Positions 11,467-59,542 of a DNA stretch of 64,000 nt are shown here, piece after piece. A model generated the notes under the pieces. It did no database searches, was not told the DNA's origin, and was given only the letters and a program-made list of their open reading frames with translations. The stretch lies in contig CAZFIV010000012.1 of assembly GCA_964519665.1 (NCBI GenBank), positions 44,814-108,813 on the forward strand. Reading direction: 5' to 3'. The position numbers were made by a program, and so were the translations under genes. Positions within the stretch are counted from its first letter, which is position 1. Every line of letters starts with the position of its first letter. Origin of the DNA: an uncultured Myxococcales bacterium (GTDB lineage: Bacteria; Myxococcota; Kuafuiibacteriia; Kuafuiibacteriales; Kuafuiibacteriaceae).

Positions 11467-12656
11467 TGCATCCCGTCGTCATTGTCTTGGGGCTCGCGTC
11501 GTTGGTCGTCCTGCTGCCCCTGACCCTGACTGTATTCAACATCCTGGTCTGGAGGCGGGGTCGACCCGACGGAAAGATCGATGGAACGGTGTCTATCCTC
11601 ATCCCCGCTCGAAACGAGGCTCGAAACATCGACGCCTGCCTGGCGGCGGTCCAGGCGAACCAGCATCCGGTATTGGAGATTCTGGTGTACGACGACGCGT
11701 CAACCGACGACACCGCCGACCGAGTGCTCGCTCGGGCCGAAGACGACCCTCGCATCCGAGTGCTGCGGGGGCGTGACCTTCCTCGTGGCTGGGTCGGCAA
11801 GTCTCACGGCTGCCATCGACTCGCATTGGCCGCTCGCGGTGATGTCCTGCTCTTCGTCGACGCCGACGTTCGCCTCGAAGCCGACGGCATCGCCCGATTA
11901 GGGAGCCAGTTCGAAGACCTGTCCGCCGATCTGGTCAGCGCGGTTCCGCGGCAGCAGATGCGAACGTGGGCCGAGCGGCTGGTTGTCCCCCTTCTGCACC
12001 TGACCTACACGAGTTGGCTACCCCTACCTCTCGTGTACGCGAGCCGCGACCCGCGGTTCTTGGCCGTCAACGGCCAGGTTCTCGCCATACGACGCTCCAC
12101 GTACGAATCGGTAGGCGGCTTCTCGGCCGTCAAGAACAGCGTCGTCGAGGACATGGCGTTTTGCAGCCTCGTCAAAAAGTCTGGCTTCCGCGTCACCTTC
12201 GTGGATGGGTTCCGAATCGCTCGCTGCCGAATGTATTCGGGTGCTCGCGAAGTCTGGGAAGGCTTTTCCAAGAATCTCTACCGGGGGTTAGGAGCGAAAC
12301 CCGTCGCGCTGATGAGCGTTCTCGCGCTGTACATCATCAGCTTCCTGGCGCCCTACGGCGTCGCGCTCTTCGCGTGGACCGCGCGAACCATGGGATGGAC
12401 GCTCTCGTTCGACGTCAATACCGTTCTGCTCGCGGCGACGGTCGGCGTATGCGCCAACTTCGTCTTGCGAGCGGTGCTGGCATGGCGTTTTCATCACCCG
12501 TGGTCGGGGGTGCTGTTGCAACCCGCGAGCGTGTTGGCCCTCGTGGCCATTGGCATCAATTCATTCATTTGGCATCAACGCGGCACCATCCGCTGGCGAG
12601 GCCGAGTCTACGGTAGTCAATCCGAGTTGACGACCACGGCGCCCCGCGCGCATTAA
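11463..12656 (+). CDS. GT2 glycosyltransferase, probable carotenoid glucosyltransferase
   Basis: N-terminal TM, ILIPARNEARNI, YDDAST, GKSHG, FVDAD and C-terminal TMs. ATGA overlap with crtC. Confidence 0.85.
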   Translation: MMHPVVIVLGLASLVVLLPLTLTVFNILVWRRGRPDGKIDGTVSILIPARNEARNIDACLAAVQANQHPVLEILVYDDASTDDTADRVLARAEDDPRIRVLRGRDLPRGWVGKSHGCHRLALAARGDVLLFVDADVRLEADGIARLGSQFEDLSADLVSAVPRQQMRTWAERLVVPLLHLTYTSWLPLPLVYASRDPRFLAVNGQVLAIRRSTYESVGGFSAVKNSVVEDMAFCSLVKKSGFRVTFVDGFRIARCRMYSGAREVWEGFSKNLYRGLGAKPVALMSVLALYIISFLAPYGVALFAWTARTMGWTLSFDVNTVLLAATVGVCANFVLRAVLAWRFHHPWSGVLLQPASVLALVAIGINSFIWHQRGTIRWRGRVYGSQSELTTTAPRAH

Positions 12657-12665
12657 GGAGTTGCT

Positions 12666-14165
12666 TTGACTGACGTTATCGTCATCGGCGCCGGGATTGG
12701 GGGACTCTCCGCGGCGATTTCGACTGCCGCCCGCGGTCACCGGGTCCGAGTGTTCGAAGCGAATACGCGGGCTGGCGGCAAAGCGGGCACCAGAATCATC
12801 GACGGCGTCGAGGTCGATACCGGCCCTAGCGTCGTCACGCTCCCCGAAGTCTTCGACGACCTCTTCAAGCTGGCCGGTTCCCGCCTCGAAGACGAGGTCT
12901 CGCTCCGGATCTCGACGCCGTCATTTCGGTATCGGTTCGCGGACGGGGTTCAACTCGACATGTTCCACGAGGTCGACGCCATGCTGGCCAGCATCGGTGC
13001 GACCCTGGGTTCCTCGGCGGCCGACGAAATGAACGCGTTCCTCAAGTACGCTCGGGAAGTCTGGGAGGCCGGCGCTCCGAACTTCGTGTACGGCAAGGCG
13101 CCGTCGTTCGGGCTGGTCTTGCGGCTCGGACTCACCCGCCTCAACGACGTGCGTCGAATCGACTCCATGCGGACGATGTACAAGGGCATCTGCGCGCACA
13201 TCCGTGAGCCCCACTTACGTTATCTGCTCGCTCGATACGCAACCTACAACGGCTCCAACGTGCTGACAGCACCCGCGACCCTCAACTGCATCGCACACGT
13301 TGAACTGGCCCTGGGCGGCTACGGCGTCGAGGGCGGGATCGCGGCCTTGGTCGAAGCCATGGTCCGCTGTGCCCGAAGGATGGGGGTGGAGTTCGCTTTC
13401 GAAACGCCGGTCCGCTCCATCGACGTGCGCAAGGGCCGAGTGGCTGGGGTGACGACCGAGCTCGGCGATTCCGTACCCGCGGCCAACGTGGTGGCCAACG
13501 CCGACGTCGGCCACGTCGCCACCCATCTGCTGCCCTCGTCTCATCGTCAGGTCGTGTCGGCTCCGACGCCCCCATCCATGTCCGGGTGGACGGGCATTCT
13601 TCGAGCCCAGCACGGCCCTGAGCCTCGTCCCGCCCATGCGGTCCTGTTCGCTGAAGAGTACCTCGAGGAATTCGTCGACATCTTCGACCGCGACCGGCCG
13701 CCCGAAACACCGACCGTATACTTGTGCGCACAGAAGACCTGTCACGGCCGCGCGGGATGGCCCGACGCCGAACCCGTCTTCGTCATGGCCAACTCTCCTG
13801 CGGAGCCCGAGAACGGAGTCCGCGACCCAGCGGTGTTCGAGGCCCTCGAGCGCCGGGTGCTCGACCGGCTGCGCCAAGCCGGTCTGATTCAGAACGGCGA
13901 CTCGCTCGTTTGGAGCCGGACGCCGACCGAGCTGGCGACCGCCTTTCCGGGCAGCCGAGGATCGATCTACGGGGCAGCTTCGAACAGCGCGACGGCGGCC
14001 TTCAAACGGCCGGCCAATCGAGTTCGGTCCCTGCCGGGCCTGTACTTGGCGAGCGGCAGCGCTCACCCCGGCGGCGGCTTGCCGCTTTGCGCCCTGTCCG
14101 GCGTGGCGGCCGCCAATGAGCTGGTTGCGGACAATGGTCACGGTACCCTGAGGGCCGTCTCGTGA
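12666..14165 (+). CDS. crtD: CrtI-family desaturase, probable 1-hydroxycarotenoid 3,4-desaturase
   Basis: IGAGIGGLSAA, DTGPSVVT and GLYLASGSAHPGGGLP. TTG start after AAGGAG. It is the second CrtI paralog and is linked to crtC. Confidence 0.75.
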   Translation: MTDVIVIGAGIGGLSAAISTAARGHRVRVFEANTRAGGKAGTRIIDGVEVDTGPSVVTLPEVFDDLFKLAGSRLEDEVSLRISTPSFRYRFADGVQLDMFHEVDAMLASIGATLGSSAADEMNAFLKYAREVWEAGAPNFVYGKAPSFGLVLRLGLTRLNDVRRIDSMRTMYKGICAHIREPHLRYLLARYATYNGSNVLTAPATLNCIAHVELALGGYGVEGGIAALVEAMVRCARRMGVEFAFETPVRSIDVRKGRVAGVTTELGDSVPAANVVANADVGHVATHLLPSSHRQVVSAPTPPSMSGWTGILRAQHGPEPRPAHAVLFAEEYLEEFVDIFDRDRPPETPTVYLCAQKTCHGRAGWPDAEPVFVMANSPAEPENGVRDPAVFEALERRVLDRLRQAGLIQNGDSLVWSRTPTELATAFPGSRGSIYGAASNSATAAFKRPANRVRSLPGLYLASGSAHPGGGLPLCALSGVAAANELVADNGHGTLRAVS

Positions 14166-14896
14166 GCCTGGAGCCGAGGCCTCCAGGCGCGGCTTGGGTG
14201 GGCACCATCGCCGCCCTGGCGATCATGGGTGCTTGGGTCGTTCACCTGGCCTGGTTGCTGAACCAACCGACGGTCTTTGTGTGGTGGGCCCCCGCGAGCG
14301 TGCTGGTCCAGACATTCCTACACACCGGGCTGTTCATCGTAGCCCACGACGGAATGCACGGCTCGATCGCCCCGGGCCACGAGCGGACGAACAAGGTCAT
14401 CGGTCAATCCTGCTTACTGATGTATGCTTTGTTTCCAATGGCTCCGCTCCTTCGGGCCCATATCGTGCACCACCGTTCCCCCGGAACCGCCGACGACCCC
14501 GACCACACCGGCGGCCGGCCGCTGGGTTACTTTCGTTGGTACCTCCGGTTCATGCTCCAGTACCTCCGGTGGTACCAGTTGCTCGGCATGGCGATGTTAT
14601 TCAACGCCGCCCATTATCTAGGCGGGATCGCCAACCCCAACTTGGTCGTCTTCTGGGTGGTTCCTTCTCTTCTGAGTACTTTTCAGCTCTTTACGTTCGG
14701 AACCTACATTCCGCACCGCGTCCCCCCGGGCGGTCATCGCGACCTTCACGCGGCCCGCTCGTCGAGCTGGCCTCATTGGCTGTCGCTTCTGACTTGTTAC
14801 CACTTCGGGTATCACTGGGAGCACCATCAGTACCCTGCCGTCCCTTGGTGGCGACTGCCCACATTCCATCGAATGACCCGCAACGCCGAGGGCTAG
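14162..14896 (+). CDS. crtW: beta-carotene ketolase (fatty-acid-desaturase family)
   Basis: His boxes HTGLFIVAHDGMHG, HIVHHR and HFGYHWEHH. Confidence 0.9.
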   Translation: MSLEPRPPGAAWVGTIAALAIMGAWVVHLAWLLNQPTVFVWWAPASVLVQTFLHTGLFIVAHDGMHGSIAPGHERTNKVIGQSCLLMYALFPMAPLLRAHIVHHRSPGTADDPDHTGGRPLGYFRWYLRFMLQYLRWYQLLGMAMLFNAAHYLGGIANPNLVVFWVVPSLLSTFQLFTFGTYIPHRVPPGGHRDLHAARSSSWPHWLSLLTCYHFGYHWEHHQYPAVPWWRLPTFHRMTRNAEG

Positions 14897-15085
14897 AGCG
14901 CCGATTCACTTGGAGCGTGCTGGTGTCGCGCCGGAATCGGCCCGTCGGGTCGTCGCGTGAGGAGGGCGCGTATCGGGAATACGCAACCGACGAAAGCCGA
15001 AGGCGGCGCGGCGAGCAGACGGGTGAGAACCAGCGACAATAGTGCGATCCAAGTGAATCGGCGCTCTAGACTTGCTCCGGCCCTC

Positions 15086-15345
15086 CTAAGAGGGTGGGTG
15101 CTGGAGGATCGACAGCTCGTACCTGAAATCCGCCTTGCGGTCCTCGGCCGTGAAGGGGGGCGGCAATCGGCGGAGCCCCTTGCGAAAGAACGTCTCGATG
15201 TGCCCGGCGCTGAAGCTATCGCGGATCGTCTGAAGCGTCTCCGCGTCGTCGCAGGCGAAGAAGCCGTTGTCGAGAGCCTCGTACCCGATCCCCTGGTGCG
15301 CGAGTTGCCGCTTGGCCCACCCGTGGCCGTTGAGCGCAGCCTCGC
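15086..15345 (-). mobile_element. remnant of a putative transposase-like gene (internal fragment, frameshifted)
   Basis: A frame absent from the ORF track reads LNGHGWAKRQLAHQGIGYEALDNGFFACDDAETLQTIRDSFSAGHIETFFRKGLRRLPPPFTAEDRKADFRYELSILQ then stops. From memory this matches a widespread ~500-aa putative transposase family (LNGHEWAKRQ...GIGFEALDNGF...YRYELSILQ). Not verified by search. Confidence 0.6.
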
Positions 15346-15490
15346 CAAGACTTCGTGCCGAGAGTTTCGATCCCCCGGAGCGCTCTCGGGCGAAGTACGC
15401 GAGCGGAGCGTAAGGGAAGCGATCCTACGTGCGCCGATTCCGACGGACGGAGTCGTCGTCGGCGAGCGATGGCGTGTCTGGTGGCCGCGA

Positions 15491-16522
15491 TCAGACCCGA
15501 GCGGTCACCGCCTCCGAGAAGTCTCGTACGTCGGTGGGGCGACCAACGACGATCGCGATGTCGCCGGCGCGAAGCTCGGTGTAGCGGTCGAGGCTGGTGA
15601 TCAGCTGTCCGTCGGCTCGTCGTAGCGCCACGATCAGCACTCCGTGGCGGTCCGGAATGTCGAGCTCGCCGAGTCGCCCGTTGTAATGCTCGACCTCGCC
15701 GATCGGAACGTCTTCGATCTGAAACTCGTCGTGCTCCCGGTTGACCGCGCGGTCGAGGAGCTGCGCCGCGTGCGGATGAATGAGCCCCTGGGCCATCCGG
15801 GCGCCGCTGATGCCGTACGGGTTGATCACCGCGTCGGCGCCAGCTCGATAAGCTTTTTGAACCGAGGCCTCATCATCGACCCGGGTAATGATGTGCAGCC
15901 GCGGGTTGAGCTGACGGGCGGACAGAGTCACGAAGATGTTGGTCGCGTCGGAGCCGGTCGCGGCCGCAATTCCGCGAGCGCGATCGATAGCGGCTTGGTT
16001 GAGAACGTCGTCCGAGCTGCCGTCCCCTCGCAGGCGGAGCTCGAGGTATGGTAGTTGGTCAGCCAGGTCGGCCTCCACCTCGATCGCGACCACCGGGTAG
16101 CCGCGGTGATGCAGCTCCGCGGCCACTTCCCGGCCGAGACGGCCAAGGCCAACCACGATGAAGTGATTCTCGAGCTTTCGCATCAGATTCCTTCGGCGTC
16201 GCTCCCGCAGGTCGCTTCGGAACTCGCCTTCGACGACGTACCGAGTTACCTGGCCGAGTGTATACGTTCCGACCCCGAGACCCGCGACGATGAGTCCCAC
16301 CGTAAAAAACCGACCCTCGGGGGACAAGGGATGCGGTTCGCTGTACCCGATGGTGGTCAGCGTTATCGTGACCATCCAAATACAGTCGACGAGCGGCCAC
16401 CCTTCGATCACGCGATAGCCGAGGGTGCCACTGGCGACCATAAAAAAGCTCAAGGCAATCGCCCATCGGAGTGTGCGAAAGAGCAAGCGAGGCGAGTATC
16501 GTCCGCCCTCTTGCCGCGTCAA
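15491..16522 (-). CDS. two-TM potassium channel with RCK (TrkA_N/TrkA_C) domains
   Basis: Pore motif TLTTIGYSE, Rossmann VVGLGRLG, GDGSSDDVL and ATGSDATN. Confidence 0.9.
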   Translation of the reverse strand: MTRQEGGRYSPRLLFRTLRWAIALSFFMVASGTLGYRVIEGWPLVDCIWMVTITLTTIGYSEPHPLSPEGRFFTVGLIVAGLGVGTYTLGQVTRYVVEGEFRSDLRERRRRNLMRKLENHFIVVGLGRLGREVAAELHHRGYPVVAIEVEADLADQLPYLELRLRGDGSSDDVLNQAAIDRARGIAAATGSDATNIFVTLSARQLNPRLHIITRVDDEASVQKAYRAGADAVINPYGISGARMAQGLIHPHAAQLLDRAVNREHDEFQIEDVPIGEVEHYNGRLGELDIPDRHGVLIVALRRADGQLITSLDRYTELRAGDIAIVVGRPTDVRDFSEAVTARV

Positions 16523-47030: not shown

Positions 47031-48044
47031 CTACGAGAGCCGACTTTCAACGACGGAGTCGATCGTCCGCAGGCCTTCTTCCGTGGCCGAGCAGCGAACC
47101 GCCCATCGGCGAGCCCGGGCAGCGGCGGCGGGCGGCGCGCGGTCGGCATAATCCGTGTAGAACCGGCGGGCGGTGACAAACCGGGCTCGAAGGCGACCGA
47201 TCAAGGGCCCGAGCGCTCCGTAGGTGGCGCCGCTCTTGAACGTGTTTACGAGAACCGTCCTCCGGGCGCCGAACCCGCCCGGCAGGCGATCTTCTCGGCC
47301 CACCGACCGTACTGCTTGCCGGCTCAAAAAAGCGCCCCCTCGGATGGGGGTCAGCAGGAGATCGGCGATGTCGCCGAGGCCGGTTTCGTCGGCCGCGAGC
47401 AAGGTCGCCCACGCCGATGAAGCGACCGGTTCAGCCTCGGCGAGGAGATTCGCAGCCTCGTCCGAAGACGGAAGATCACTTCGATGATGGTGCAAGAGCT
47501 CGGTGACCCGCTCCGCCCACATGCGGTAGAACGGAAAGTCACCGTTGTGCAGCGCTTCCGCCAACGCTGGCCACCACCAAAGAAGGTGGGCGTCGAGCAA
47601 CTCGATTTGCATCTGCTCGATGGCTGCGACCACCTCCGTTCGGGCGTCGACCCGGGCGTCGGCCTCCGCTCCGCACAGAAACGCCATCGCCTCCAGCAGC
47701 CAGCTGACATGGTCGGGCGTCGGTCCGGTCGGGTCGACGCGAAAGCCGATCCTCGAGAAGAATGCGGCAACGCGGTCGGTTTCCGGACCTCCCGGCATCG
47801 CGTCGTCCCCCAGAAAGACCCCCTGAAACGGAAAGATCTCGTGCACCAAAGCCTGGTAGTGCGCGGCCGAAGCACGGTCGAAGTCGACCGGACCGCCCGA
47901 CGTCGGGCGCCACCGGTCGATCTCGGACGCGAGCTCCGGCACCGCGTCAGCCAGCGGCATCAAGTCGGGCGTCCACCCTTGCCTCGCGATGGCAGCAAAC
48001 AACCCGTAAGCGCGACTTCGCGCCTCCGCCAGATGAGCTGACAT
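47031..48044 (-). CDS. TorD/DmsD-family molybdoenzyme maturation chaperone
   Basis: FPFQGVF, PDHVSWLLEAMAFL and LDAHLLWW; last gene of the Mo-enzyme operon. Confidence 0.85.
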   Translation of the reverse strand: MSAHLAEARSRAYGLFAAIARQGWTPDLMPLADAVPELASEIDRWRPTSGGPVDFDRASAAHYQALVHEIFPFQGVFLGDDAMPGGPETDRVAAFFSRIGFRVDPTGPTPDHVSWLLEAMAFLCGAEADARVDARTEVVAAIEQMQIELLDAHLLWWWPALAEALHNGDFPFYRMWAERVTELLHHHRSDLPSSDEAANLLAEAEPVASSAWATLLAADETGLGDIADLLLTPIRGGAFLSRQAVRSVGREDRLPGGFGARRTVLVNTFKSGATYGALGPLIGRLRARFVTARRFYTDYADRAPPAAAARARRWAVRCSATEEGLRTIDSVVESRLS

Positions 48045-48047
48045 GCA

Positions 48048-51041
48048 CTAGGAACGGCCAAAAGGCGCCGTGGGAAGAGCGTAGGTGGCTTTGCTCGGCT
48101 TGAGCGGCCGCTTGAGCCAGAACGGGCGCCGAGTGCCGTCGGGGCTGTGGTCGACGCTCGACCGCGTGAGCCCCACCCACTCCCGATACACCTGCATCGA
48201 CCGGTTCGTATCGACGTACACATCGCCGAACTTCTCGTTGCCTTGGGCCTTGCGCACGCTCACCGCCTTCTGCAGCCAGCAGTGCGCACCGCTGATCGGG
48301 TCGGGGTGCACGGCGTGGGTCAAGTTTTGGTGCACACCGACGTCTTCCCACCACACCCGCGCGGTATCGGGGTCGAAGCTCGAATAGGCCTTCGCGCCCT
48401 GCTTCACGGTGAGGGTGTGGCCGCCCGTTCCGTCCTCGGCGAGGCTGACCAGGTTCGACATACCGGGGTTCACGCCGGTGCCATCTTGCAGACGCCACCG
48501 TCCGAGGTGGTGGCTCATCGCGATCACCCCTGGCTTGATGCCTTCGGTCACCCACACTCGGTCGACGAAATAGCCGATCTCCGTCTCGACCCGAACGAGG
48601 TCGCCGGTCGCCACACCGAGACGGGTCGCGTCGACCGAATTCATCCACACCGGATTCTTGTGGCTGATCTCGTATAGCCACTTCGCGTTCGCGCTGCGGG
48701 TATGAATGAGGGTCGGAAGCCGGAAGTTGGGCAGCAACAGCATCTCGCCCCGGTCCCGATCGATGTGGCGGGGATGCACGTGGCTCTCCAGGGGCCACGG
48801 GACCGTGTATCGCTGCTCGGGCCAGCCCCAGTTGTGGAGCGTCGTACTGAAGAACTCCAACCGTCGACTCGGCGTCTCGAAGCCCTTGCACGCGTCACCG
48901 TCGACCATGAGACCCACTGCCGTGCCGTCGGATTTCAAGACCCGACCGCGCTCGTCGACGGTGGTCGCCCCCGTGTCGACCGGCTTCAGGTAAGGCGCGT
49001 AGTTCTCCTTCACCACCTCGAAGCAAGCATACTTGCGCATGTACTCGAGCGGCTTCAACCCCTCGGCGGCGGCCGCCTCGGGGAGGCCGGGTACGGAGTT
49101 CTCGAAGATCCACTGATAGTACTCGTCGACGGTGATGATCTCGCCGGACCGGAAAGGACTCTCAAAGTGCTGGCGAATGCCCAGCGAACCGTCCGGATCC
49201 ATGCGGTCGGACAGGTCGATCCACAGCTCATTCTCCTCCCAAACCTCGCCGGGATTCGCTTCGTAGGTCCGGTTGACCTTCTGCCCGAGCTTCTCCATCG
49301 CGACCCGACGGACCGGCTGCCGAAATCCAATCCATTGCCCAGCGTGGGTCTCCTGGCTCATGAGGTCGTGCCGCTCGCCGGCGTGACCCATCGGCAGCAC
49401 GTAGTCCGCAAACCAAGCGGACTCGTTCCACGTCGGCGTCAGAGCAACATGGAGCTTGAGTTTTTCTTCATCCCGAAGGGCCTTCAGCCACATGAATCCG
49501 TCGGGATTGATCCACATCGGGTTGTAGACCCGAGTAAAGTACACATCGACGTCACCTCGCCCTTCCTCGAGGAAGTGGGGCAACAGGAACGACATCTCAT
49601 AAAAGGCGAACGGCCACTCGTGGGGCAAATGCAGCTCGTTCCAGCTCTCGATGGCCGGCGGGACTTTGAACGGCTTGGGCACGAACTTGTTCCAACTGTT
49701 GCCCGATGTACCGCCCTTGGTACCGACCCCACCGGTCAGCACGCTCAAGAAGAATAGGCAGCGGGCGATCTGCCAGCCGCCGAGATTGCCGATGGTCGCC
49801 GAACGCCAGGTATGAGCGGCCAGCCGGCCCTCGCAGGCCGCTACCATCTCCGCCGCCTCGACGATCCGTTCAACGGGTACCAACGCTTCGTCGGCCGCTC
49901 GTTGGAAGGTAAAGGGCGCGTACAACGCCTTCAAGACCCGGTCGAAGACCTCGAAGTCGACGTCTCCGCGCTCTTCTCGAGCCCGCAGGAAGGCGACCTT
50001 GACTCCTTCATCGCTGTCGCTCTCGGGGAGCATCTGCAGATATTCTTGCCAGTTCGTCCACCGCCGGACGAACTCTTTGTCGTACAGATCGTTCTGAATC
50101 AGGTGGTTGGCGATGGCCAGCAACACCCACCCTTCACTGCCCGGCCACGTCGGCAACCACACGTCGCTCTTAGCCGCGGTGTTCGACAGCCGAGGGTCGA
50201 AGGTGATCAGTTTGGCCCCCTTCTCCTTGCCCTCGATGATCCGCTGAGCGTGAGGATTGAAGTAGTGACCGGTCTCGAGATGACTCGACACCAATAGAAT
50301 GCACCGGGCCTCGGAGTAGTCAGGGCTGGGTCGATCGAAACCGGCCCAGAAGTGGTAACCCGCCCGGGCGCTCGACGAGCAGATATTGGTGTGTGAGTTG
50401 TGACCGTCGACGCCCCACGCTTGAATGCAACGGTTGGTGTATCCGTCTTCGCCGGGCCGTCCGACGTGGTACATGATGCCATCGCGTCGACGCTGCCGGC
50501 TCTGCCGCATCTTGCCCGCGATGTCGTCGAGCGCCTCGTCCCAGGTGACCCGCTTCCACTTGCCCTCGCCGCGGGCACCCACCCGCTTGAGTGGATAGAG
50601 GATCCGCTCGGGGTCGTACACCTGGTTGTGGGTCGCCGGGCCCTTGGCGCAGTTGCGACCGCGGCTACCGGGGTGCACGGGGTTGCCTTCGAACTTCTTG
50701 ATCTCCAGCGTCGTTCGGTCGACGTAGGCCAGGAGACCGCAAGCGCTCTCGCAGTTGAAACAGATGGTTGGGATCAGCATGTACCGTCGCGGCACTCGGC
50801 GCGGCCAGGCCCGTGGATCCCACTCGACCCAATCGTCCCACTTTTCGGCCGGAGGATATTGGCTCATCCGGCCGTCAGGATGCTGGACGACGGTCAACTT
50901 GACCGGCTCTTGAGTGTGTTCCCCGAACGACGGAAGGTCTTGTCCGCCTACGTTGGTCGGCGCACGTCCTGCGGGGCGCGGCGTAACGCGAGACCGCCCC
51001 ATGAGGCGATCTAGAAACGAAGGTGCCGTATAACCTGCCAT
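48048..51041 (-). CDS. DMSO-reductase-family molybdopterin oxidoreductase, catalytic subunit, no Tat signal
   Basis: CFNCESACG...C [4Fe-4S] motif, RILYPLKR, HNSHTNICSS (probable Cys ligand), DPRLS, DYVLP and C-terminal VWMNSVDA. No RRxF motif in the N-terminus. Confidence 0.92.
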   Translation of the reverse strand: MAGYTAPSFLDRLMGRSRVTPRPAGRAPTNVGGQDLPSFGEHTQEPVKLTVVQHPDGRMSQYPPAEKWDDWVEWDPRAWPRRVPRRYMLIPTICFNCESACGLLAYVDRTTLEIKKFEGNPVHPGSRGRNCAKGPATHNQVYDPERILYPLKRVGARGEGKWKRVTWDEALDDIAGKMRQSRQRRRDGIMYHVGRPGEDGYTNRCIQAWGVDGHNSHTNICSSSARAGYHFWAGFDRPSPDYSEARCILLVSSHLETGHYFNPHAQRIIEGKEKGAKLITFDPRLSNTAAKSDVWLPTWPGSEGWVLLAIANHLIQNDLYDKEFVRRWTNWQEYLQMLPESDSDEGVKVAFLRAREERGDVDFEVFDRVLKALYAPFTFQRAADEALVPVERIVEAAEMVAACEGRLAAHTWRSATIGNLGGWQIARCLFFLSVLTGGVGTKGGTSGNSWNKFVPKPFKVPPAIESWNELHLPHEWPFAFYEMSFLLPHFLEEGRGDVDVYFTRVYNPMWINPDGFMWLKALRDEEKLKLHVALTPTWNESAWFADYVLPMGHAGERHDLMSQETHAGQWIGFRQPVRRVAMEKLGQKVNRTYEANPGEVWEENELWIDLSDRMDPDGSLGIRQHFESPFRSGEIITVDEYYQWIFENSVPGLPEAAAAEGLKPLEYMRKYACFEVVKENYAPYLKPVDTGATTVDERGRVLKSDGTAVGLMVDGDACKGFETPSRRLEFFSTTLHNWGWPEQRYTVPWPLESHVHPRHIDRDRGEMLLLPNFRLPTLIHTRSANAKWLYEISHKNPVWMNSVDATRLGVATGDLVRVETEIGYFVDRVWVTEGIKPGVIAMSHHLGRWRLQDGTGVNPGMSNLVSLAEDGTGGHTLTVKQGAKAYSSFDPDTARVWWEDVGVHQNLTHAVHPDPISGAHCWLQKAVSVRKAQGNEKFGDVYVDTNRSMQVYREWVGLTRSSVDHSPDGTRRPFWLKRPLKPSKATYALPTAPFGRS

Positions 51042-51048
51042 GTGGTCC

Positions 51049-52719
51049 TCAGGAGTTCGGGATGTGTTGGGGCGCCATTACGAACGCGTATTCGAACCAA
51101 TAGAGGCCGGCGATCACCGCGACCGCGGCCGCGCCGGCTAGAACCGGAGATGAACCGAGCAGCAGCAACCCGAACGGAACCAGGTGGCCCACCAAGACGC
51201 TGCCCGTCCAAAAGTGATGGCGATACTTGCCCCGTGTAATGTCGTGAGCGGCGGCCGCGGCCACGTCGGTCGCGTGGGGCATGCCGAACTCGCCGACCAG
51301 GGTCACGAACAGGTCGACGCCGAGGCTGACCATCCAGACCCACCACACCAACGACATCAACCCCTCGGGCGCGTCGAGCACCACGGACAGCAGGCCGAGC
51401 GTTGCTGCGCCCACCATGAGCGCTTGAATCAGAAGATGAGCCGGCAGCAAGGTGCTCTGCCAAAGGTCGCGGCCCTCGGCCTGGCCGAAGAGGAAGGCCG
51501 TGTACACGGCCGTGCCCACCGCCAACGGAGTCCCCGCTGCGAGAAGAGCGGTGCGCGCCGTCGCGACCGAATCCGTCCACCCGAAATAGGCCGCCGCTTC
51601 CACCAGCAACCACAGGCCCGCGACGACCGAAAAGCCGATCAGAATGAACGCGCCGCGCACCAACCAGCTTCGCCACTGCGGAAACCGAAGAATGCTCAGA
51701 AAGCGGGTTGGACGCTCGAGATCATAAATGAGAAGCGCGGTCGTCACGCCGATCGACCCGACCGACACTGCGGCGGCCAGCAACGCATAGGGCGCGTCGC
51801 CGCCGAGGGGCATGAGCCCGAGCCCCCACGCCACCGCCATGATCAGGAAGATGCCCGCGCCGATGCCCTTGGTGACCAGATACGCCGGCACCGGCCAGTG
51901 CCAAGGCACGTGATGCTGGGCGTTGTAGCCCACCTGAACCATATGCTCGGCCATGCGACCGGGCGCGAGCTGAATGGGACCACCGGCGGGGTGACCTTGG
52001 TCGGCGGCCGACCGAATCGGGGTGCCCGACGGGGCGCGCCCGAGCTCCGGTTCTGCCTCTGCGCCGGCGTGAAGGGGGCCGTTCGAGCCCGGCGTTCCGT
52101 ATTCGGCCTCCGACACGACCTCCGCCCACATGAAGGTAGACGGGGTCGCGGTCGCGGTCGGAGTCAGAGCGACCGCGTCACCATCGATGTAAAAGAGCTT
52201 CGGCCCGGTCCCTTGTTCCGGCTTGCGAACCGCGACCTTCTCTTTGGTCAACACTCGGCTTATTTCGGAGGCCGGATCGTCGAGGTCGCCGGCGATGATC
52301 GCGTGCTCCGGACAGACCACCACGCAGGCCGGCTCCAGGCCCAGGTCCGTGCGGTGCGAGCAAAAGTGGCACTTGCTGGCGGTGCCTGAATTCGGGTCGA
52401 TGTGAATGGCATCGTACGGACACGCCTGCAGACAGGCTTTGCATCCGATGCAGCGATCCGGGTCGAACTCGACGATGCCATCGTGGCGCTGGTACATCGC
52501 GGTGACCGGGCAGATGCGAACACACGGAGGGTTCGCGCAGTGGTTGCATCGCGTCACTTGAAATGTGCGCTGGGTGTTGGGGTACTGGCCGTGCTCCGTG
52601 TATTTGACCCACGTCCGATACACGCCCAGCGGCACTTCGTTTTCGCTTTTGCAGGCCGTCGAACAGGCGTGACAGCCAATGCAAGTGCGGTTGTTGATGA
52701 CAAACCCGAAGTTCGGCAC
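51049..52719 (-). CDS. fused NrfC/DmsB-type 4x[4Fe-4S] protein and NrfD/PsrC-type membrane anchor
   Basis: CIGCHACSTAC, CNHCANPPCVRICP, CIGCKACLQACP and KCHFC...CVVVCP, then WHWPVPAYL, DLERP and about 8 TMs. GGAG RBS before GTG 52719. Confidence 0.92.
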   Translation of the reverse strand: MPNFGFVINNRTCIGCHACSTACKSENEVPLGVYRTWVKYTEHGQYPNTQRTFQVTRCNHCANPPCVRICPVTAMYQRHDGIVEFDPDRCIGCKACLQACPYDAIHIDPNSGTASKCHFCSHRTDLGLEPACVVVCPEHAIIAGDLDDPASEISRVLTKEKVAVRKPEQGTGPKLFYIDGDAVALTPTATATPSTFMWAEVVSEAEYGTPGSNGPLHAGAEAEPELGRAPSGTPIRSAADQGHPAGGPIQLAPGRMAEHMVQVGYNAQHHVPWHWPVPAYLVTKGIGAGIFLIMAVAWGLGLMPLGGDAPYALLAAAVSVGSIGVTTALLIYDLERPTRFLSILRFPQWRSWLVRGAFILIGFSVVAGLWLLVEAAAYFGWTDSVATARTALLAAGTPLAVGTAVYTAFLFGQAEGRDLWQSTLLPAHLLIQALMVGAATLGLLSVVLDAPEGLMSLVWWVWMVSLGVDLFVTLVGEFGMPHATDVAAAAAHDITRGKYRHHFWTGSVLVGHLVPFGLLLLGSSPVLAGAAAVAVIAGLYWFEYAFVMAPQHIPNS

Positions 52720-52743
52720 GAGGGCTCCTCCGAACGACGTCGA

Positions 52744-52759
52744 CGCAAAGGTTGTGCCG
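52744..52759 (-). promoter_or_regulatory. sigma54 (-24/-12) promoter for the Mo-enzyme operon
   Basis: Minus strand CGGCACAACCTTTGCG = GG-N10-GC, with GC ~26 nt upstream of the GTG. Confidence 0.7.
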
Positions 52760-52878
52760 TTCCTCACGACGCTGCATCGCGCCCGCCCATGTCGCCGCTG
52801 TTTCAGAGCTTTGAACCATCGGTGCTACCTTTATGAAACGGTGGTGAGGTTGCCGCTCACTTGGGCAACGGTCGCCGC

Positions 52879-52894
52879 CGGCACGCGGCTTGCG
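52879..52894 (+). promoter_or_regulatory. sigma54 (-24/-12) promoter for the persulfide dioxygenase gene
   Basis: CGGCACGCGGCTTGCG = GGCACG-N4-TTGC, ~60 nt upstream of the ATG. Confidence 0.7.
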
Positions 52895-52952
52895 ACCGCG
52901 GCCTCGACGCACGGTTCAGTCGAGTTTCGCTAGACCGATCAGGAGGCCCACT

Positions 52953-53969
52953 ATGCTCTTCAGGCAGCTCTTCGACGCTCAGTCATGCACATATAGCTAT
53001 CTTCTTGCGGACGCTTCCGGTGCCGCGGTGCTCATCGATCCCGTCCTCGAGCAGGCCGAACGCGACATCCAGCTGATCAAGGAGCTCGGCCTAGAGCTGG
53101 TGCACACGATCGAGACACATGTTCACGCCGACCACGTGACTGCCTCCGGCGTCCTTAGAAATCGCTTGGGCAGCCGAAGTGTCATGTCGCGGCACGCGGG
53201 GGTCGGCTGCGCCGACGTCATGATCGGCGACGGCGACATCGTCTCGTGCGGCGAATTGCGGCTGGAAGTGCGACAGACGCCTGGCCACACCGTGGAGTCC
53301 ATTTGTTTGGTCACCGAAGACAAGAAGATGGCTTTTACGGGTGACACCCTTTTGATTCGAGGATGCGGCCGCACCGACTTTCAAGCCGGTTCTCCGCAGG
53401 AACTCTACCGCTCGGTGCACACCAAGATCTTTTCGCTTCCGGACGGCTGTCTCCTGTACCCGGGCCACGACTACAAGGGCCGGACCGTCACCACCGTGGG
53501 CGAAGAGAAGGCTCACAACCCGCGCTTGGGGGGCGGAAAGACCGAGGCTGAGTTCGTCGAGATCATGAACAACCTCAACCTGCCCCGCCCCAAGCTGATC
53601 GACGAGGCCGTTCCGGCCAACCAGCAGTGCGGATTCGAGCGGCCGTCGATCAGTCGATCCAGCGACGGCGTTCCGGAAGTCAGCGTCGACTGGGTGCGGG
53701 CGAACCAAGGAACCGTCCGGTTGATCGACGTGCGAAGCGAAGCCGAGTTCAACGGCGAACTCGGTCACATCGACGGCGCAGAGCTGGTGGAGCTCGAAAC
53801 CGTGGCCGCCACCGCCGCCGACTGGAACCGCGACCAGACCATCGTCATGATCTGTCGCAGCGGTGGGCGTTCGGGTCGGGCGGCCAAGGCCCTCGAAGAG
53901 ATGGGCTTCAAGAACGTCACCTCGATGGCCGGCGGCATGCTCGCCTGGAACCAGCGGGCCGCTTCGTAG
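52953..53969 (+). CDS. persulfide dioxygenase (ETHE1-like MBL fold) fused to rhodanese
   Basis: AGGAGG RBS, MLFRQLFD, ETHVHADH, TPGHT, FTGDTLLIRGCGRTDF, PGHDY and C-terminal CRSGGRS. Confidence 0.92.
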   Translation: MLFRQLFDAQSCTYSYLLADASGAAVLIDPVLEQAERDIQLIKELGLELVHTIETHVHADHVTASGVLRNRLGSRSVMSRHAGVGCADVMIGDGDIVSCGELRLEVRQTPGHTVESICLVTEDKKMAFTGDTLLIRGCGRTDFQAGSPQELYRSVHTKIFSLPDGCLLYPGHDYKGRTVTTVGEEKAHNPRLGGGKTEAEFVEIMNNLNLPRPKLIDEAVPANQQCGFERPSISRSSDGVPEVSVDWVRANQGTVRLIDVRSEAEFNGELGHIDGAELVELETVAATAADWNRDQTIVMICRSGGRSGRAAKALEEMGFKNVTSMAGGMLAWNQRAAS

Positions 53970-54137: not shown

Positions 54138-54989
54138 ATGTCGTTTGCATTGTCCATCGTCTGCGTTGCGACCGCGGTCGGGAATCCGCCCTCGACCTCG
54201 CTCGAAGACCACCCCCCGACCACCATTTTGAAGCACGTCCGCCCCGGCACCCTTCGCGCCGGAAAGGACCAGTGGCGAGTCATCGATTTTCGGACCGGAG
54301 GTGTCAGCCGAGTCAGCAAGATTCAGCTCGACGCCGACGGTCACCTCGGCGCGCTCGAGCAGATCCTTCCTGCGCCGGGGAGCGTCGAGTTCTCGACCGA
54401 GGTCGAGCTCCTGAGCCGGGATACGATTCACGACCCGACGGCCGGGTTGGTGCCGACCCGCGGGGGCTTTGGGCTCGTGAGCGACCTGAAGCATCTCGAG
54501 TTGTCTTGGTACCGAGATTCAGCCAGCACGACGGTGCCGCTGCAGGCCACCGCGCTGCGGGTCTATATCTACGATCCGGACCTCGGCGCCGAGGGCACGT
54601 CGTACACCCTCGTGTGGGAACCCTTTTACAACGGCTATGCGACCCTCCCGGGACGCAGCGTCCCCACGGACACGTGGATTCGTTCCAACGTCACCGACGA
54701 CTTCTTCTGGCGAACGCCTCTGTATCTCGATGGTCTTCGAGTCCCCACCGACTTTTGTCGGCAGAACTCGCGAGAGTGCTACATTTTCAATCGAACGATC
54801 GGCGAGTGGGACTTCGGTCCCCGGGCCGTGATCTTCGGGTTGAGCCTCGCCGCTGGCTCTGGATGGAGCGGCAGCTATCAAGGGTACGTCGACCACGTGG
54901 TGATGGAGGTCGACGACCAGCGCTGGGCCTGGGATTTTGCGCCGGGTCGCCGCTACGCGCTTTCGAAAGCAAGCAAAGCTCAGAAGTAG
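54138..54989 (+). CDS. secreted hypothetical protein, beta-rich
   Basis: GGGAGA RBS, hydrophobic N-terminus, aromatic-rich LSWYR / LVWEPFYNG segments. Confidence 0.7.
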   Translation: MSFALSIVCVATAVGNPPSTSLEDHPPTTILKHVRPGTLRAGKDQWRVIDFRTGGVSRVSKIQLDADGHLGALEQILPAPGSVEFSTEVELLSRDTIHDPTAGLVPTRGGFGLVSDLKHLELSWYRDSASTTVPLQATALRVYIYDPDLGAEGTSYTLVWEPFYNGYATLPGRSVPTDTWIRSNVTDDFFWRTPLYLDGLRVPTDFCRQNSRECYIFNRTIGEWDFGPRAVIFGLSLAAGSGWSGSYQGYVDHVVMEVDDQRWAWDFAPGRRYALSKASKAQK

Positions 54990-55725: not shown

Positions 55726-56646
55726 TCAATATCTAGGCACCGTGTTGTCGACGTGCAGCGCCCACGCGTCGATTCCCCCGGTCATGTTGAAGACGTTGCG
55801 GAAGCCCCGTGCGGTGAACCGTTCGGCCATGGCCTGGCTTCGCGGACCGTGATGGCAGTGGAAGACCAGCATCGTGTTGCGGTCCCGATCCATGAGCTCT
55901 CGCTCGTACTGCGCATCCAGGAGTCGTGCGGCCTCGATACGAGCGATCTTGGCCTCCTCGGGGGTGCGAACATCGATGAGGTCGAGCTTCTCGCCGGCTT
56001 CGAGCTTGGCCTGTACGTCTTCGGGGGCGATCTGACGAACCCGAGCAGGAGCATTGGGGTTGTCGATCTTGAATCCCCCTTGTTCGCCGGGAACGAAGTC
56101 GATGACGACCCCGTTGGCCCGCTGGGCGGTTCCGGTGTCCATGATGACCTTCAGCCCATTGGCATCGACGGTGACGTCGATCGGACCGGCCGCGTCGAGG
56201 TCCAGGCCGGGTCGAAAAGTGGGATCGATCATCAGACGAACCGACGTGCCCGGCTGCTCGGACAGGGGCCCTTTGAGGGCCTCGGAGGCCGCGTCGGTGA
56301 TCGTAATGGTCGGCGGCTCGACCTGCGGCGGCTCGCGGCCGAGGATCTTGAACAGCTCGCCGCTTTCATACTTTTGAACGACGATGTCGCAGCCACCGAC
56401 GAACTCGCCCTTGACGTAGAGCTGCGGAATCGTTGGCCACTCGGAAAATTCCTTGATACCCTGGCGGACTTCTGCGTCTTCGAGCACGTTGATCGTCTTG
56501 TACTCGGGAAGCACCGTGTCGAGGATCTGAACGACCTGGGCCGAGAAACCGCACTGCGGCATCCGACGGTGCCCTTTCATGAAGAGCACGACCTCGCTCC
56601 CGTCGATGGTGTTCTGGATTTGGGCTCGAACGTTGTCACTCAGCAT
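55726..56646 (-). CDS. grxD: monothiol glutaredoxin (Grx4) fused to HesB/IscA-like and rhodanese domains
   Basis: LFMKG...PQCGFS and WPTIPQLY...GG, then ITITDAA...GFKIDNPN, then DVRT...CHHGPRS. The start was trimmed to ATG 56646 (GGAG RBS). Confidence 0.88.
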
Positions 56647-56662
56647 TATAAGGACTCCTCCT

Positions 56663-59542
<2,880 letters not shown>

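What the first reader, a model, noticed from the sequence alone, without database searches (positions are those of the whole stretch)
47031..53969. Tat-less molybdoenzyme operon paired with persulfide dioxygenase-rhodanese: candidate cytoplasmic sulfane-sulfur/sulfite oxidation module
Seen: an NrfC-NrfD fusion, a DMSO-reductase-family subunit with no twin-arginine signal (probable Cys ligand in HTNICSS) and a TorD-like chaperone, divergent from an ETHE1-like dioxygenase with a rhodanese domain. Established: persulfide dioxygenase converts glutathione persulfide to sulfite, and SoeABC is a cytoplasm-facing Mo enzyme with an NrfD-like anchor that oxidises sulfite. Inference: the pair may form a persulfide -> sulfite -> quinone route (or a thiosulfate/polysulfide reductase running the other way). 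The CFNCESAC-type catalytic subunit is not one I can assign to a characterised clade.
Basis: partly seen in the sequence, partly recalled or inferred. Interest (0 to 1): 0.65.

Follow-up and report, generated by a model that had tools for sequence, protein, structure and literature searches.

The report
Inward-facing molybdoenzyme beside persulfide dioxygenase
A myxobacterial genome from a stromatolite carries a membrane-bound molybdenum enzyme that faces the cell interior, next to the genome's only persulfide dioxygenase; it most likely oxidises the sulfite that this dioxygenase makes, and it belongs to a widespread family already noted in the literature whose activity has never been assayed.

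Summary
Three co-directional genes sit divergent from a persulfide dioxygenase-rhodanese fusion:
- a fused 4x[4Fe-4S]/NrfD subunit;
- a 997-aa bis-MGD catalytic subunit with a Cys ligand and no Tat signal;
- a NarJ/TorD-like chaperone.

The dioxygenase fusion is a close homologue of the characterised BpPRF.

Charge distribution in the anchor and the lack of any export signal place the Fe-S and Mo subunits in the cytoplasm.

The catalytic subunit reaches no curated family cut-off. It belongs to a very conserved family (53-85% identity) found in at least ten bacterial phyla and in haloarchaea. Its nearest outgroups are Tat-exported enzymes with B-C-A gene order.

About a third of 84 related loci carry a persulfide dioxygenase nearby, of three different structural classes. 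Rhodanese, SulP, YeeE, TusA/DsrE and LbpA/LplA genes are the other recurrent neighbours. These neighbours make or carry compounds that end as cytoplasmic sulfite.

The best reading is a sulfite:menaquinone oxidoreductase that works like SoeABC. The architecture was already described in the literature as PSRLC3, or "cytoplasmic PSR", and proposed as a sulfite oxidiser. This is therefore a new member of a known but untested kind. I could not fetch a SoeA reference, so orthology to SoeA stays untested.

The parts
47031..48044 (-). NarJ/TorD-family assembly chaperone (NarJ domain at 47559-47873) with a C-terminal extension of about 170 aa of unknown fold. Last gene of the operon.
   Evidence: Pfam PF02613, E 2.7e-10. 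No PDB relative. The same two-part protein follows the catalytic gene in 32 of 84 related loci, and Pfam finds Nitrate_red_del in 17 of 206 neighbour ORFs.
48048..51041 (-). Mo/W-bisPGD catalytic subunit, 997 aa, no Tat signal, with an N-terminal tail of about 90 aa carrying the motif YPPxExWDDW
   Evidence: Pfam domains. No NCBIfam cut-off reached. Best PDB match is PsrA 2vpw, E 2.6e-38. 53-85% identical relatives in many phyla.
50739..50762 (-). FS0 [4Fe-4S] motif CFNCESAC (Cys94, 97, 101). The fourth Cys, Cys131, lies in NCAKG at 50640-50654.
   Evidence: Invariant in alignment A1. Coordinates.
50373..50393 (-). HTNICSS, holding Cys221, the predicted Mo ligand
   Evidence: Aligns with Cys173 of Thermus PsrA. 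Invariant in A1.
51049..52719 (-). Fused electron-transfer and anchor subunit: 4x[4Fe-4S] ferredoxin domain (52168-52719), linker of about 80 aa (51919-52167), and 8-TM NrfD/PsrC domain (51052-51918). The ORF is open up to 52767.
   Evidence: Pfam Fer4_11 plus NrfD. Fe-S half matches PsrB 2vpw_B, E 2e-57, from query residue 18. TM and charge analysis. The fusion is the rule in the family.
52880..52893 (+). GGCACGCGGCTTGC, a sigma54-type -24/-12 element 60 nt upstream of the dioxygenase start
   Evidence: Read directly. Conserved in the 84% relative L100.
52800..52839 (.). Conserved inverted repeat GTTTCA-N28-TGAAAC in the divergent intergenic region, a candidate regulator site
   Evidence: Conserved block between the window and L100.
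52953..53969 (+). Type I (ETHE1-like) persulfide dioxygenase fused to a rhodanese domain. Metal motifs: HVHADH 53118-53135, PGHT 53280-53291, FTGDTLL 53334-53354. Rhodanese loop CRSGGRS 53853-53873.
   Evidence: PDB BpPRF 5ve3, E 1e-104 over residues 19-355. M. xanthus PDO 4ysb and human ETHE1 4chl, E 1e-80. It is the only ETHE1-type gene in the genome.
55726..56739 (-). Glutaredoxin / IscA-like / rhodanese protein. A possible accessory neighbour; membership in the module is uncertain.
   Evidence: Pfam. Synteny with MsrA and GcvP is kept in the 84% relative L100.

Best explanation
The three co-directional genes encode a two-subunit, membrane-anchored molybdoenzyme and its assembly chaperone. 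The catalytic and Fe-S parts of the enzyme sit on the cytoplasmic face.

Proposed mechanism:
1. The dioxygenase-rhodanese fusion next door turns glutathione persulfide into sulfite. Through its rhodanese domain it also uses the sulfane sulfur of thiosulfate.
2. The Mo subunit, with its Cys-ligated Mo-bisPGD and FS0 cluster, oxidises that sulfite to sulfate.
3. The electrons pass through the four [4Fe-4S] clusters of the fused subunit.
4. [quoted passage not shown]
5. The respiratory chain then reoxidises the quinol.

In other genomes the same enzyme is combined with SulP or YeeE transporters, TusA/DsrE carriers or LbpA-type sulfur-oxidation genes. All of these also deliver cytoplasmic sulfite.

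Shown here: gene content, cofactor motifs, cytoplasmic topology, family membership and conserved linkage. Inferred: the substrate, the direction of the reaction and the quinone type.
For: Topology:
- No Tat or Sec signal on either subunit, here or in 77 and 61 relatives.
- The Fe-S domain is fused to the N-terminus of the anchor.
- K+R counts are 12 on the Fe-S side against 1 on the other side, over 8 TM helices.

Cofactors:
- FS0 motif and the Cys aligned to the PsrA Mo ligand.
- Fe-S half matches PsrB at E 2e-57.

Partner enzyme:
- P0004 matches the characterised PDO-rhodanese fusion BpPRF at E 1e-104, with metal and rhodanese motifs intact.
- It is the only such gene in the genome.

Linkage:
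- A PDO-type MBL gene lies within 9 kb in 28 of 84 related loci, mostly on the same strand and adjacent.
- An unbiased Pfam census of 206 same-strand neighbours from 65 loci is topped by Rhodanese 21, NarJ 17, Lactamase_B 16, SulP 13, STAS 12, YeeE 5, LplA 5 and GcvH-like 4.
- Three PDO classes are recruited: type I here, type II in Enhygromyxa and type III CstB-like in Saprospiraceae.
- A 43% sister lineage has EBP / PDO-Rhd / YeeE x2 / FeS-NrfD / MopB in a single cluster.
- In R. jostii RHA1 pRHL3, DsrE, TusA, three MBL genes and ArsR regulators flank the pair.
- In T. roseum a CsoR-family regulator precedes it.
- An Anaerolineales group has an HdrD-like CCG protein, two GcvH-like proteins and LplA upstream.
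- Full synteny is kept in an 84% relative.

Literature:
- The same architecture in green sulfur bacteria was proposed to oxidise sulfite (PMC3906813, PMC9324843).
- SoeABC is the precedent for a cytoplasm-facing, NrfD-anchored sulfite:quinone enzyme (PMC8076601).
Against: - No activity, expression or mutant data exist for any member. No RNA run holds this sequence.
- About half of the related loci show no sulfur gene within 9 kb.
- The closest solved and curated relatives are reductases: PsrA, and PhsA at 183 bits.
- The genome also has four SUOX-fold genes that could oxidise sulfite elsewhere.
- BpPRF was interpreted by its authors as serving sulfur assimilation. In that role sulfite would be kept, not burnt.
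- Orthology to SoeA could not be tested, and gene order and fusion differ from SoeABC.
Confidence: 0.55

Rival explanations
1. The enzyme acts on sulfane sulfur or thiosulfate rather than free sulfite. It could be a cytoplasmic polysulfide, persulfide or thiosulfate reductase that uses menaquinol to discharge excess sulfane sulfur as sulfide. Alternatively it could be an oxidoreductase that takes carrier-bound sulfur directly from rhodanese, TusA or DsrE.
For: - The closest solved structures and curated models are PsrAB and PhsA.
- The neighbours are sulfur carriers: rhodanese, TusA and DsrE.
- Marine Group A authors read the same architecture as a polysulfide reductase (PMC3906813).
Against: - Most carriers belong to lineages I know mainly as aerobic heterotrophs, and the recurrent partner is an O2-dependent dioxygenase.
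- By textbook redox potentials, reduction of thiosulfate or polysulfide by menaquinol is uphill.
- The protein lies outside the Psr/Phs-like group on a long, fully supported branch.
- SulP and DASS anion transporters fit a sulfate or sulfite end product better.
Confidence: 0.22
2. The substrate is not a sulfur compound. Candidates are arsenite, selenite or tellurite, formate, or an organic molecule. The sulfur neighbours would then reflect co-regulation under general thiol or redox stress.
For: - Public names include 'formate dehydrogenase' and 'selenocysteine-containing dehydrogenase'.
- About half of the loci have no sulfur neighbour.
- A Soe-like paralogue in Thioalkalivibrio was induced by arsenite (PMC6620896).
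- MsrA and a glutaredoxin fusion lie nearby in this window.
Against: - The public names are automatic.
- No arsenic, selenium or formate genes recur among 206 neighbours, whereas sulfur families fill the top ranks.
- Fdh models score lower than PhsA.
Confidence: 0.12
3. The two divergent units are functionally independent in this genome. The dioxygenase-rhodanese would serve sulfur assimilation or sulfide detoxification alone, and the adjacency to the molybdoenzyme would be an accident of gene order.
For: - The genes are divergently transcribed, not co-transcribed.
- Only the dioxygenase-side sigma54 element is conserved in the 84% relative.
- The linkage is absent from two thirds of loci.
Against: - One PDO gene in 8 Mb gives a chance of well under 1% of lying within 10 kb. 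Yet 28 of 84 loci show the linkage, with three PDO classes, often in the same operon.
Confidence: 0.1

Closest known systems
PSRLC3 / 'cytoplasmic PSR' of green sulfur bacteria, and the psrBC-psrA operons of Marine Group A, Marine Group II, Haladaptatus and Caldilinea (Frigaard & Bryant 2008 and Gregersen 2011, as cited in PMC3906813 and PMC9324843; Wright 2014, PMC3906813)
   Same: - Tat-less PsrA-like catalytic subunit, psrB-psrC gene fusion and BC-A gene order.
- Lateral spread across phyla and domains.
- Proposed but untested sulfite oxidation.
- The window protein is 73-77% identical to Caldilineae proteins and 53% identical to a haloarchaeal one. Wright 2014 names Caldilinea aerophila and a different haloarchaeon, Haladaptatus.
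   Different: - Here the partner that makes sulfite is an O2-dependent persulfide dioxygenase-rhodanese in a probable aerobic heterotroph, not the Dsr system of an anaerobic phototroph.
- A two-domain NarJ-like chaperone is part of the operon.
- I had no green sulfur bacterial sequence to place in my tree.
SoeABC sulfite:quinone oxidoreductase (Allochromatium vinosum, Aquifex aeolicus; Dahl 2013 and Boughanemi 2020, as cited in PMC8076601)
   Same: - Cytoplasm-facing Mo-bisPGD enzyme with a Cys ligand, a 4-cluster Fe-S subunit and an inverted NrfD-type anchor.
- Similar size of the catalytic subunit (SoeA size is from memory).
- A role downstream of cytoplasmic sulfite producers.
   Different: - SoeABC has three separate genes, which I recall as being in A-B-C order. 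Here B and C are fused and precede A.
- KEGG-based surveys find SoeC only in Proteobacteria, Aquificae and a few Clostridia (PMC8076601), not in the phyla that carry this family.
- The nearest relatives found here are Tat-exported B-C-A enzymes.
- Orthology was not testable.
Thermus thermophilus polysulfide reductase PsrABC (PDB 2vpw-2vpz)
   Same: - Best solved match for both the catalytic subunit (E 2.6e-38) and the Fe-S part (E 2e-57).
- Same Cys ligand position.
- An 8-TM NrfD-type anchor that I expect, from the PsrABC structure as I recall it, to have its N-terminus on the Fe-S side.
   Different: - PsrAB are Tat-exported and periplasmic, and PsrA has 765 aa.
- Only the first third of the catalytic subunit aligns well.
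- The window enzyme is about 230 aa longer and faces the other way.
BpPRF, the persulfide dioxygenase-rhodanese fusion of Burkholderia (Paraburkholderia) phytofirmans (PDB 5ve3-5ve5)
   Same: - Same two-domain architecture, aligned over the whole length at E 1e-104.
- Metal-binding and rhodanese Cys motifs are kept.
   Different: From memory of Motl et al. 2017, BpPRF sits with a SulP-type transporter and was read as assimilatory. I know of no Mo enzyme reported beside it.

Membership tests
PSRLC3 / cytoplasmic PSR (fused psrBC-psrA type) | Catalytic subunit without a Tat signal | tested here: met
   No RR motif or h-region before FS0 in the window protein or in 77 relatives.
PSRLC3 / cytoplasmic PSR (fused psrBC-psrA type) | PsrB-like and PsrC-like parts fused in one polypeptide, encoded upstream of the catalytic gene | tested here: met
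   Fer4_11 plus NrfD in P0003. Gene order BC-A. The fusion is present in most of the 84 loci.
PSRLC3 / cytoplasmic PSR (fused psrBC-psrA type) | Clusters with the green sulfur bacterial PSRLC3 sequences in a tree | not testable with these tools
   No Chlorobi sequence could be fetched. The indirect link is that Wright 2014 (PMC3906813) groups Caldilinea aerophila and Haladaptatus fusions with the GSB enzymes, and the window protein is 73-77% identical to Caldilineae proteins and 53% identical to a Natrinema protein.
SoeABC sulfite:quinone oxidoreductase | Cytoplasmic orientation of the A and B subunits with an inverted NrfD-type anchor | tested here: met
   No signals. Positive-inside count of 12 against 1 with the Fe-S side inside.
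SoeABC sulfite:quinone oxidoreductase | Three separate subunits (the A-B-C gene order is from memory) | tested here: not met
   B and C are fused, and the order is BC-A-chaperone.
SoeABC sulfite:quinone oxidoreductase | Orthology to A. vinosum SoeA (D3RNN8) or Aquifex aq_1234 | not testable with these tools
   No reference sequence was obtainable. Among the full-length representatives I inspected from the 150 nearest 50% clusters, the only Tat-less ones of about 950 aa were this family and its 43% sister. KEGG SoeC is absent from the phyla that carry this family (PMC8076601).
SoeABC sulfite:quinone oxidoreductase | Sulfite-dependent quinone reduction | not testable with these tools
   This needs biochemistry.
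PsrABC / PhsABC polysulfide and thiosulfate reductases | Tat-exported catalytic subunit | tested here: not met
PsrABC / PhsABC polysulfide and thiosulfate reductases | Score above the curated PhsA model cut-off, or placement in the Psr/Phs group | tested here: not met
   PhsA 183 bits against a cut-off of 694. Separated from 13 Psr/Phs-like Tat enzymes and from plasmid PhsA by a branch of 1.43 with 100% SH-aLRT support.
PsrABC / PhsABC polysulfide and thiosulfate reductases | Cys ligand to Mo and an FS0 cluster | tested here: met
   Alignment to PsrA Cys173. CFNCESAC-x29-C motif.
Persulfide dioxygenase-rhodanese fusion (PRF, type I PDO) | ETHE1-type MBL domain with His/His/Asp metal motifs and a C-terminal rhodanese with a catalytic Cys loop | tested here: met
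   5ve3 E 1e-104, 4ysb E 1e-81, 4chl E 7e-80. The motifs HVHADH, PGHT, FTGDTLL and CRSGGRS are present.

The most novel reading that the evidence does not exclude
This would be a lineage separate from SoeABC that became cytoplasm-facing on its own. The route would start from a Tat-exported B-C-A ancestor, lose the signal and fuse B to C.

It would be the missing sulfite:menaquinone oxidoreductase of aerobic heterotrophs. Together with persulfide dioxygenase-rhodanese, and in other genomes SulP or YeeE importers, it would form a Sox-independent cytoplasmic route from persulfide or thiosulfate to sulfate. That route would feed half of the electrons into the respiratory chain, in at least ten bacterial phyla and in haloarchaea.
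Probability: 0.4. Interest if true: 0.7.

Novelty: new member of a known kind. Interest (0 to 1): 0.45.

Why it matters
Heterotrophs that oxidise sulfide with SQR and persulfide dioxygenase release sulfite inside the cell. How most of them remove it is unclear, because SoeABC is largely confined to Proteobacteria and Aquificae in gene surveys (PMC8076601).

If this family is the enzyme that does it, sulfite oxidation potential is being missed in metagenomic sulfur budgets for several abundant groups: Chloroflexota, Bacteroidota, Gemmatimonadota, Acidobacteriota, Myxococcota, Actinomycetota and haloarchaea. One sediment survey reported soeABC as undetected in groups that carry many pdo genes (PMC12345210).

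The family has cultured carriers on which the hypothesis could be tested, such as Rhodococcus jostii RHA1 and Thermomicrobium roseum.

Tried and rejected
   - Plasmid tblastn gave only this family, PhsA, Fdh/Nas/Nap/Dms and solitary 1140-aa enzymes.
   - A Ralstonia megaplasmid hit looked, from ORF sizes alone, like an assimilatory nitrate reductase locus.
   - The genome search cannot be centred on a plasmid locus.
   - Cluster look-ups gave no useful names.
   - Papers held no sequences.
2. My first neighbourhood clustering by all-vs-all BLAST merged PDO, SulP and NarJ-like genes into one cluster through multidomain proteins. In GC-rich DNA it also picked up antisense ORFs. I replaced it with seeded tblastn and a Pfam census.
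4. Regex 'Tat-like' hits in 7 relatives were rejected. They are either the conserved RRYxLIPT just before FS0 or lie in over-extended GC-rich ORF heads, and none has a hydrophobic region.
6. An expression check was impossible. Only four DNA runs, from a stromatolite metagenome, hold the sequence.
7. I searched the literature for a paper linking this enzyme to persulfide dioxygenase and found none.
8. I considered structure prediction of the catalytic subunit and dropped it, because it would not discriminate between substrates.
Full report
**What is in the window**

- On the minus strand, 51049-52767 encodes a ferredoxin domain with four Cys groups fused through a linker of about 80 residues to an NrfD/PsrC membrane domain.
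- 48048-51041 encodes a 997-aa molybdopterin subunit.
- 47031-48044 encodes a NarJ/TorD-family protein with an extra C-terminal half that matches nothing.
- On the plus strand, divergent, lies a metallo-beta-lactamase plus rhodanese protein.

Two start codons need adjusting.
- The dioxygenase most likely begins at ATG 52953, behind AGGAGG.
- The fused subunit most likely begins at GTG 52719. An RBS precedes that codon. The alignment to Thermus PsrB starts at query residue 18. The homologous gene in an 84% relative is called at the equivalent codon.

The window comes from a genome assembled from stromatolite metagenomes. No RNA data hold it.

**Cofactors and orientation**

The catalytic subunit has the FS0 motif C94-x2-C97-x3-C101-x29-C131. 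In the HMMER alignment to Thermus PsrA (2vpw), Cys221 of HTNICSS falls on Cys173, which is the Mo ligand in that structure.

About 90 residues precede FS0, with no twin arginine followed by a hydrophobic stretch. The same holds for 77 relatives. None of 61 fused partners has anything before its first cluster.

The NrfD part has eight hydrophobic segments. Loops on the side of the fused Fe-S domain carry 12 Lys+Arg, and loops on the other side carry 1. A folded four-cluster domain without a Tat signal cannot be exported. The positive-inside rule agrees, so the Fe-S and Mo parts face the cytoplasm.

**Which family**

No NCBIfam model reaches its cut-off. Scores are PhsA 183 (cut-off 694), DmsA/YnfE 171, ArrA 98 and TtrA 94.

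The family is very large and very conserved.
- More than 8000 clusters matched, the closest at 71-85% identity.
- Identity is 53-76% between Myxococcota, Rhodothermales, Chloroflexota, Thermomicrobium, Rhodococcus and the archaeon Natrinema.
- In a library clustered at 50% identity the family collapses to essentially one full-length representative.
- It is patchy among relatives: about 8 of the 40 other related genomes searched.
- Natrinema and a Saprospiraceae member pair up in the tree. Both observations point to lateral transfer.

The next full-length relatives are:
- a Tat-less 43% sister from Myxococcota_A;
- Tat-exported enzymes of 1115-1123 aa at 36-48% identity, one of which (P0128) was checked and lies in a B-C-A-NarJ operon with a cytochrome c.

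The Tat-exported ones share the N-terminal YPPxExW motif.

A maximum-likelihood tree puts all of these in one clade of 19 rows with 100% SH-aLRT support on a branch of 1.43. That clade is apart from 13 Psr/Phs-like Tat enzymes, an E. coli-plasmid PhsA and E. coli DmsA. The Tat-less fused enzymes are therefore related most closely to exported B-C-A enzymes.

I could not obtain SoeA, TtrA, ArrA or SreA sequences, so their position relative to this clade is open.

**The partner enzyme**

The divergent gene aligns over its full length with BpPRF, the characterised persulfide dioxygenase-rhodanese fusion (E 1e-104). It also aligns with the Myxococcus xanthus and human ETHE1 dioxygenases (E about 1e-80). 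The metal motifs and the rhodanese Cys loop are intact. It is the only ETHE1-type gene in the 8-Mb assembly.

**Is the linkage conserved?**

Yes, though not universally.
- With seeded tblastn, a dioxygenase-type MBL gene lies within 9 kb in 28 of 84 related loci. Rhodanese does so in 23 and SulP in 20. Most are on the same strand, directly before the fused gene or directly after the catalytic gene.
- With one dioxygenase gene per 8 Mb, chance would give less than one locus.
- A census of 206 same-strand neighbour ORFs from 65 loci, run blind against Pfam, is headed by Rhodanese (21), NarJ-like (17), Lactamase_B (16), SulP (13), STAS (12), YeeE/YedE (5), LplA (5) and GcvH-like (4).
- The dioxygenases are of three structural classes: type I fused to rhodanese here, type II in Enhygromyxa, and CstB-like type III in Saprospiraceae and Rhodothermales. 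In Enhygromyxa the type II gene sits in the same reading frame as the NarJ-like gene. Independent recruitment of three classes is hard to explain without a functional tie.
- The 43% sister lineage has a sigma54 activator, PDO-rhodanese, two YeeE genes, the fused subunit and the catalytic subunit in one cluster.
- R. jostii RHA1 pRHL3 has DsrE and TusA directly upstream, with three MBL genes and ArsR regulators around.
- T. roseum has a CsoR-family regulator upstream.
- An Anaerolineales group has an HdrD-like CCG protein, two GcvH-like proteins and a lipoate ligase upstream, and a DASS/CitMHS anion transporter downstream.
- An 84% relative keeps the complete local order of the window, including MsrA and the glutaredoxin-rhodanese gene.
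- The shared intergenic region keeps GGCAC-N5-TTGC before the dioxygenase and the repeat GTTTCA-N28-TGAAAC.

**How it most likely works**

The recurrent neighbours share one product. This rests on established knowledge of these families, not on tests here.
- Persulfide dioxygenase makes sulfite.
- Rhodanese acting on thiosulfate releases sulfite.
- YeeE imports thiosulfate. SulP family members carry sulfate or related anions.
- LbpA-dependent sHdr systems end in sulfite.

The simplest reading is that the molybdoenzyme oxidises cytoplasmic sulfite to sulfate and reduces the quinone pool, as SoeABC does. From what I know of their lipoquinones, the carrier lineages use menaquinone, which the very low sulfate/sulfite potential can reduce easily. 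Both half-reactions would lie on the cytoplasmic side, so the step itself need not be electrogenic. Energy would be gained when the quinol is reoxidised.

I give this reading 0.55. The main rival, at 0.22, is action on sulfane sulfur, polysulfide or thiosulfate. It is suggested by the Psr/Phs resemblance and by the carrier proteins. It is weakened by the aerobic, O2-dependent context and by thermodynamics with menaquinol. A non-sulfur substrate (0.12) and a merely accidental adjacency in this genome (0.10) are less likely.

**Comparison with what is known**

The architecture is not new. Wright et al. 2014 (PMC3906813) describe Tat-less PsrA homologues with a psrBC fusion in psrBCA order. They report them in Marine Group A, several green sulfur bacteria, Marine Group II, Haladaptatus and Caldilinea aerophila. 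They cite the proposal that the green sulfur bacterial complex (PSRLC3) oxidises sulfite from the Dsr system. Later papers repeat that inference (PMC9324843, PMC6338057).

The window enzyme meets all the architectural criteria of that type. It is 73-77% identical to Caldilineae proteins.

It works like SoeABC in the proposed sense, but it fails the Soe subunit criterion. It also comes from phyla where KEGG-based surveys find no SoeC (PMC8076601).

Earlier notes of this scan reach the same reading for many other genomes. I used them as leads only. They pointed me to the PSRLC3 and Marine Group A literature, which I then read.

**Verdict**

The feature is a new member of a known but biochemically untested kind.

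What this window adds is a clean case of the enzyme paired with the genome's sole type I persulfide dioxygenase-rhodanese, under a conserved sigma54-type control region. The survey made here also shows that the pairing recurs with three dioxygenase classes.

Noticed in passing
L016:11819-13807: In Enhygromyxa salina SWB007 the NarJ-like chaperone and a type II persulfide dioxygenase (best PDB matches 9g8t and 4ysk) lie in one uninterrupted 662-aa reading frame directly after the catalytic gene. In strain DSM 15201 (L017) the chaperone ORF is separate and the dioxygenase-type match follows about 1 kb downstream of the catalytic gene.
   Followed up: partly
L010:14428-16674 (also L013, L022, L033): Caldilineae and Ardenticatenaceae loci encode a SulP-STAS transporter with a C-terminal rhodanese domain (about 710-750 aa) downstream of the molybdoenzyme operon. 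This hints that the transported anion is handled by a sulfurtransferase.
   Followed up: no
L019:2181-7287 and 12090-15568: An Anaerolineales subgroup flanks the enzyme with several genes. Upstream are an HdrD-like Fer4+CCG protein, two GcvH-like proteins, a lipoate-protein ligase and a methyltransferase. Downstream are a CitMHS/DASS anion transporter, DUF2270/DUF2179 and an FmdE-domain protein.
   Followed up: partly
L101:3545-4156: A 203-aa PAS plus Fis-type HTH protein without an AAA+ sigma54-interaction domain lies divergent from a YeeE pair and the molybdoenzyme operon, in a 77% relative.
   Followed up: no
window 54138-54989: A 283-aa ORF with a signal-like N-terminus and no Pfam match lies between the dioxygenase and msrA. 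A 286-aa gene without Pfam hits occupies the same place in the 84% relative L100.
   Followed up: partly
window 55726-56739: A three-domain protein, glutaredoxin + IscA-like Fe-S_biosyn (just below cut-off) + rhodanese, sits next to msrA and gcvP. The arrangement is conserved in L100.
   Followed up: partly
window 52768-52800: The sigma54-like element proposed earlier on the molybdoenzyme side (TGGGCG-N5-GATGC) is not conserved in L100. It would also sit inside the longer ORF reading. Only the dioxygenase-side element is conserved.
   Followed up: partly
G004:C44:415551-417491 and G010:C40:21577-23508: Two family-level relatives of the window's organism carry 1120-1137-aa versions (48-51% identity over the first 660 residues). 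They resemble the Tat-exported B-C-A type rather than the fused Tat-less enzyme.
   Followed up: no
L002:9886-11055 and L003:9897-11057: In Rhodococcus jostii RHA1 and Natrinema halophilum an Mrp/NBP35 ATPase gene, overlapping the end of the catalytic gene, takes the place of the NarJ-like chaperone.
   Followed up: no
tree: The haloarchaeal (Natrinema) enzyme pairs with a Saprospiraceae enzyme at 99% SH-aLRT support inside the bacterial radiation. This indicates inter-domain transfer.
   Followed up: no
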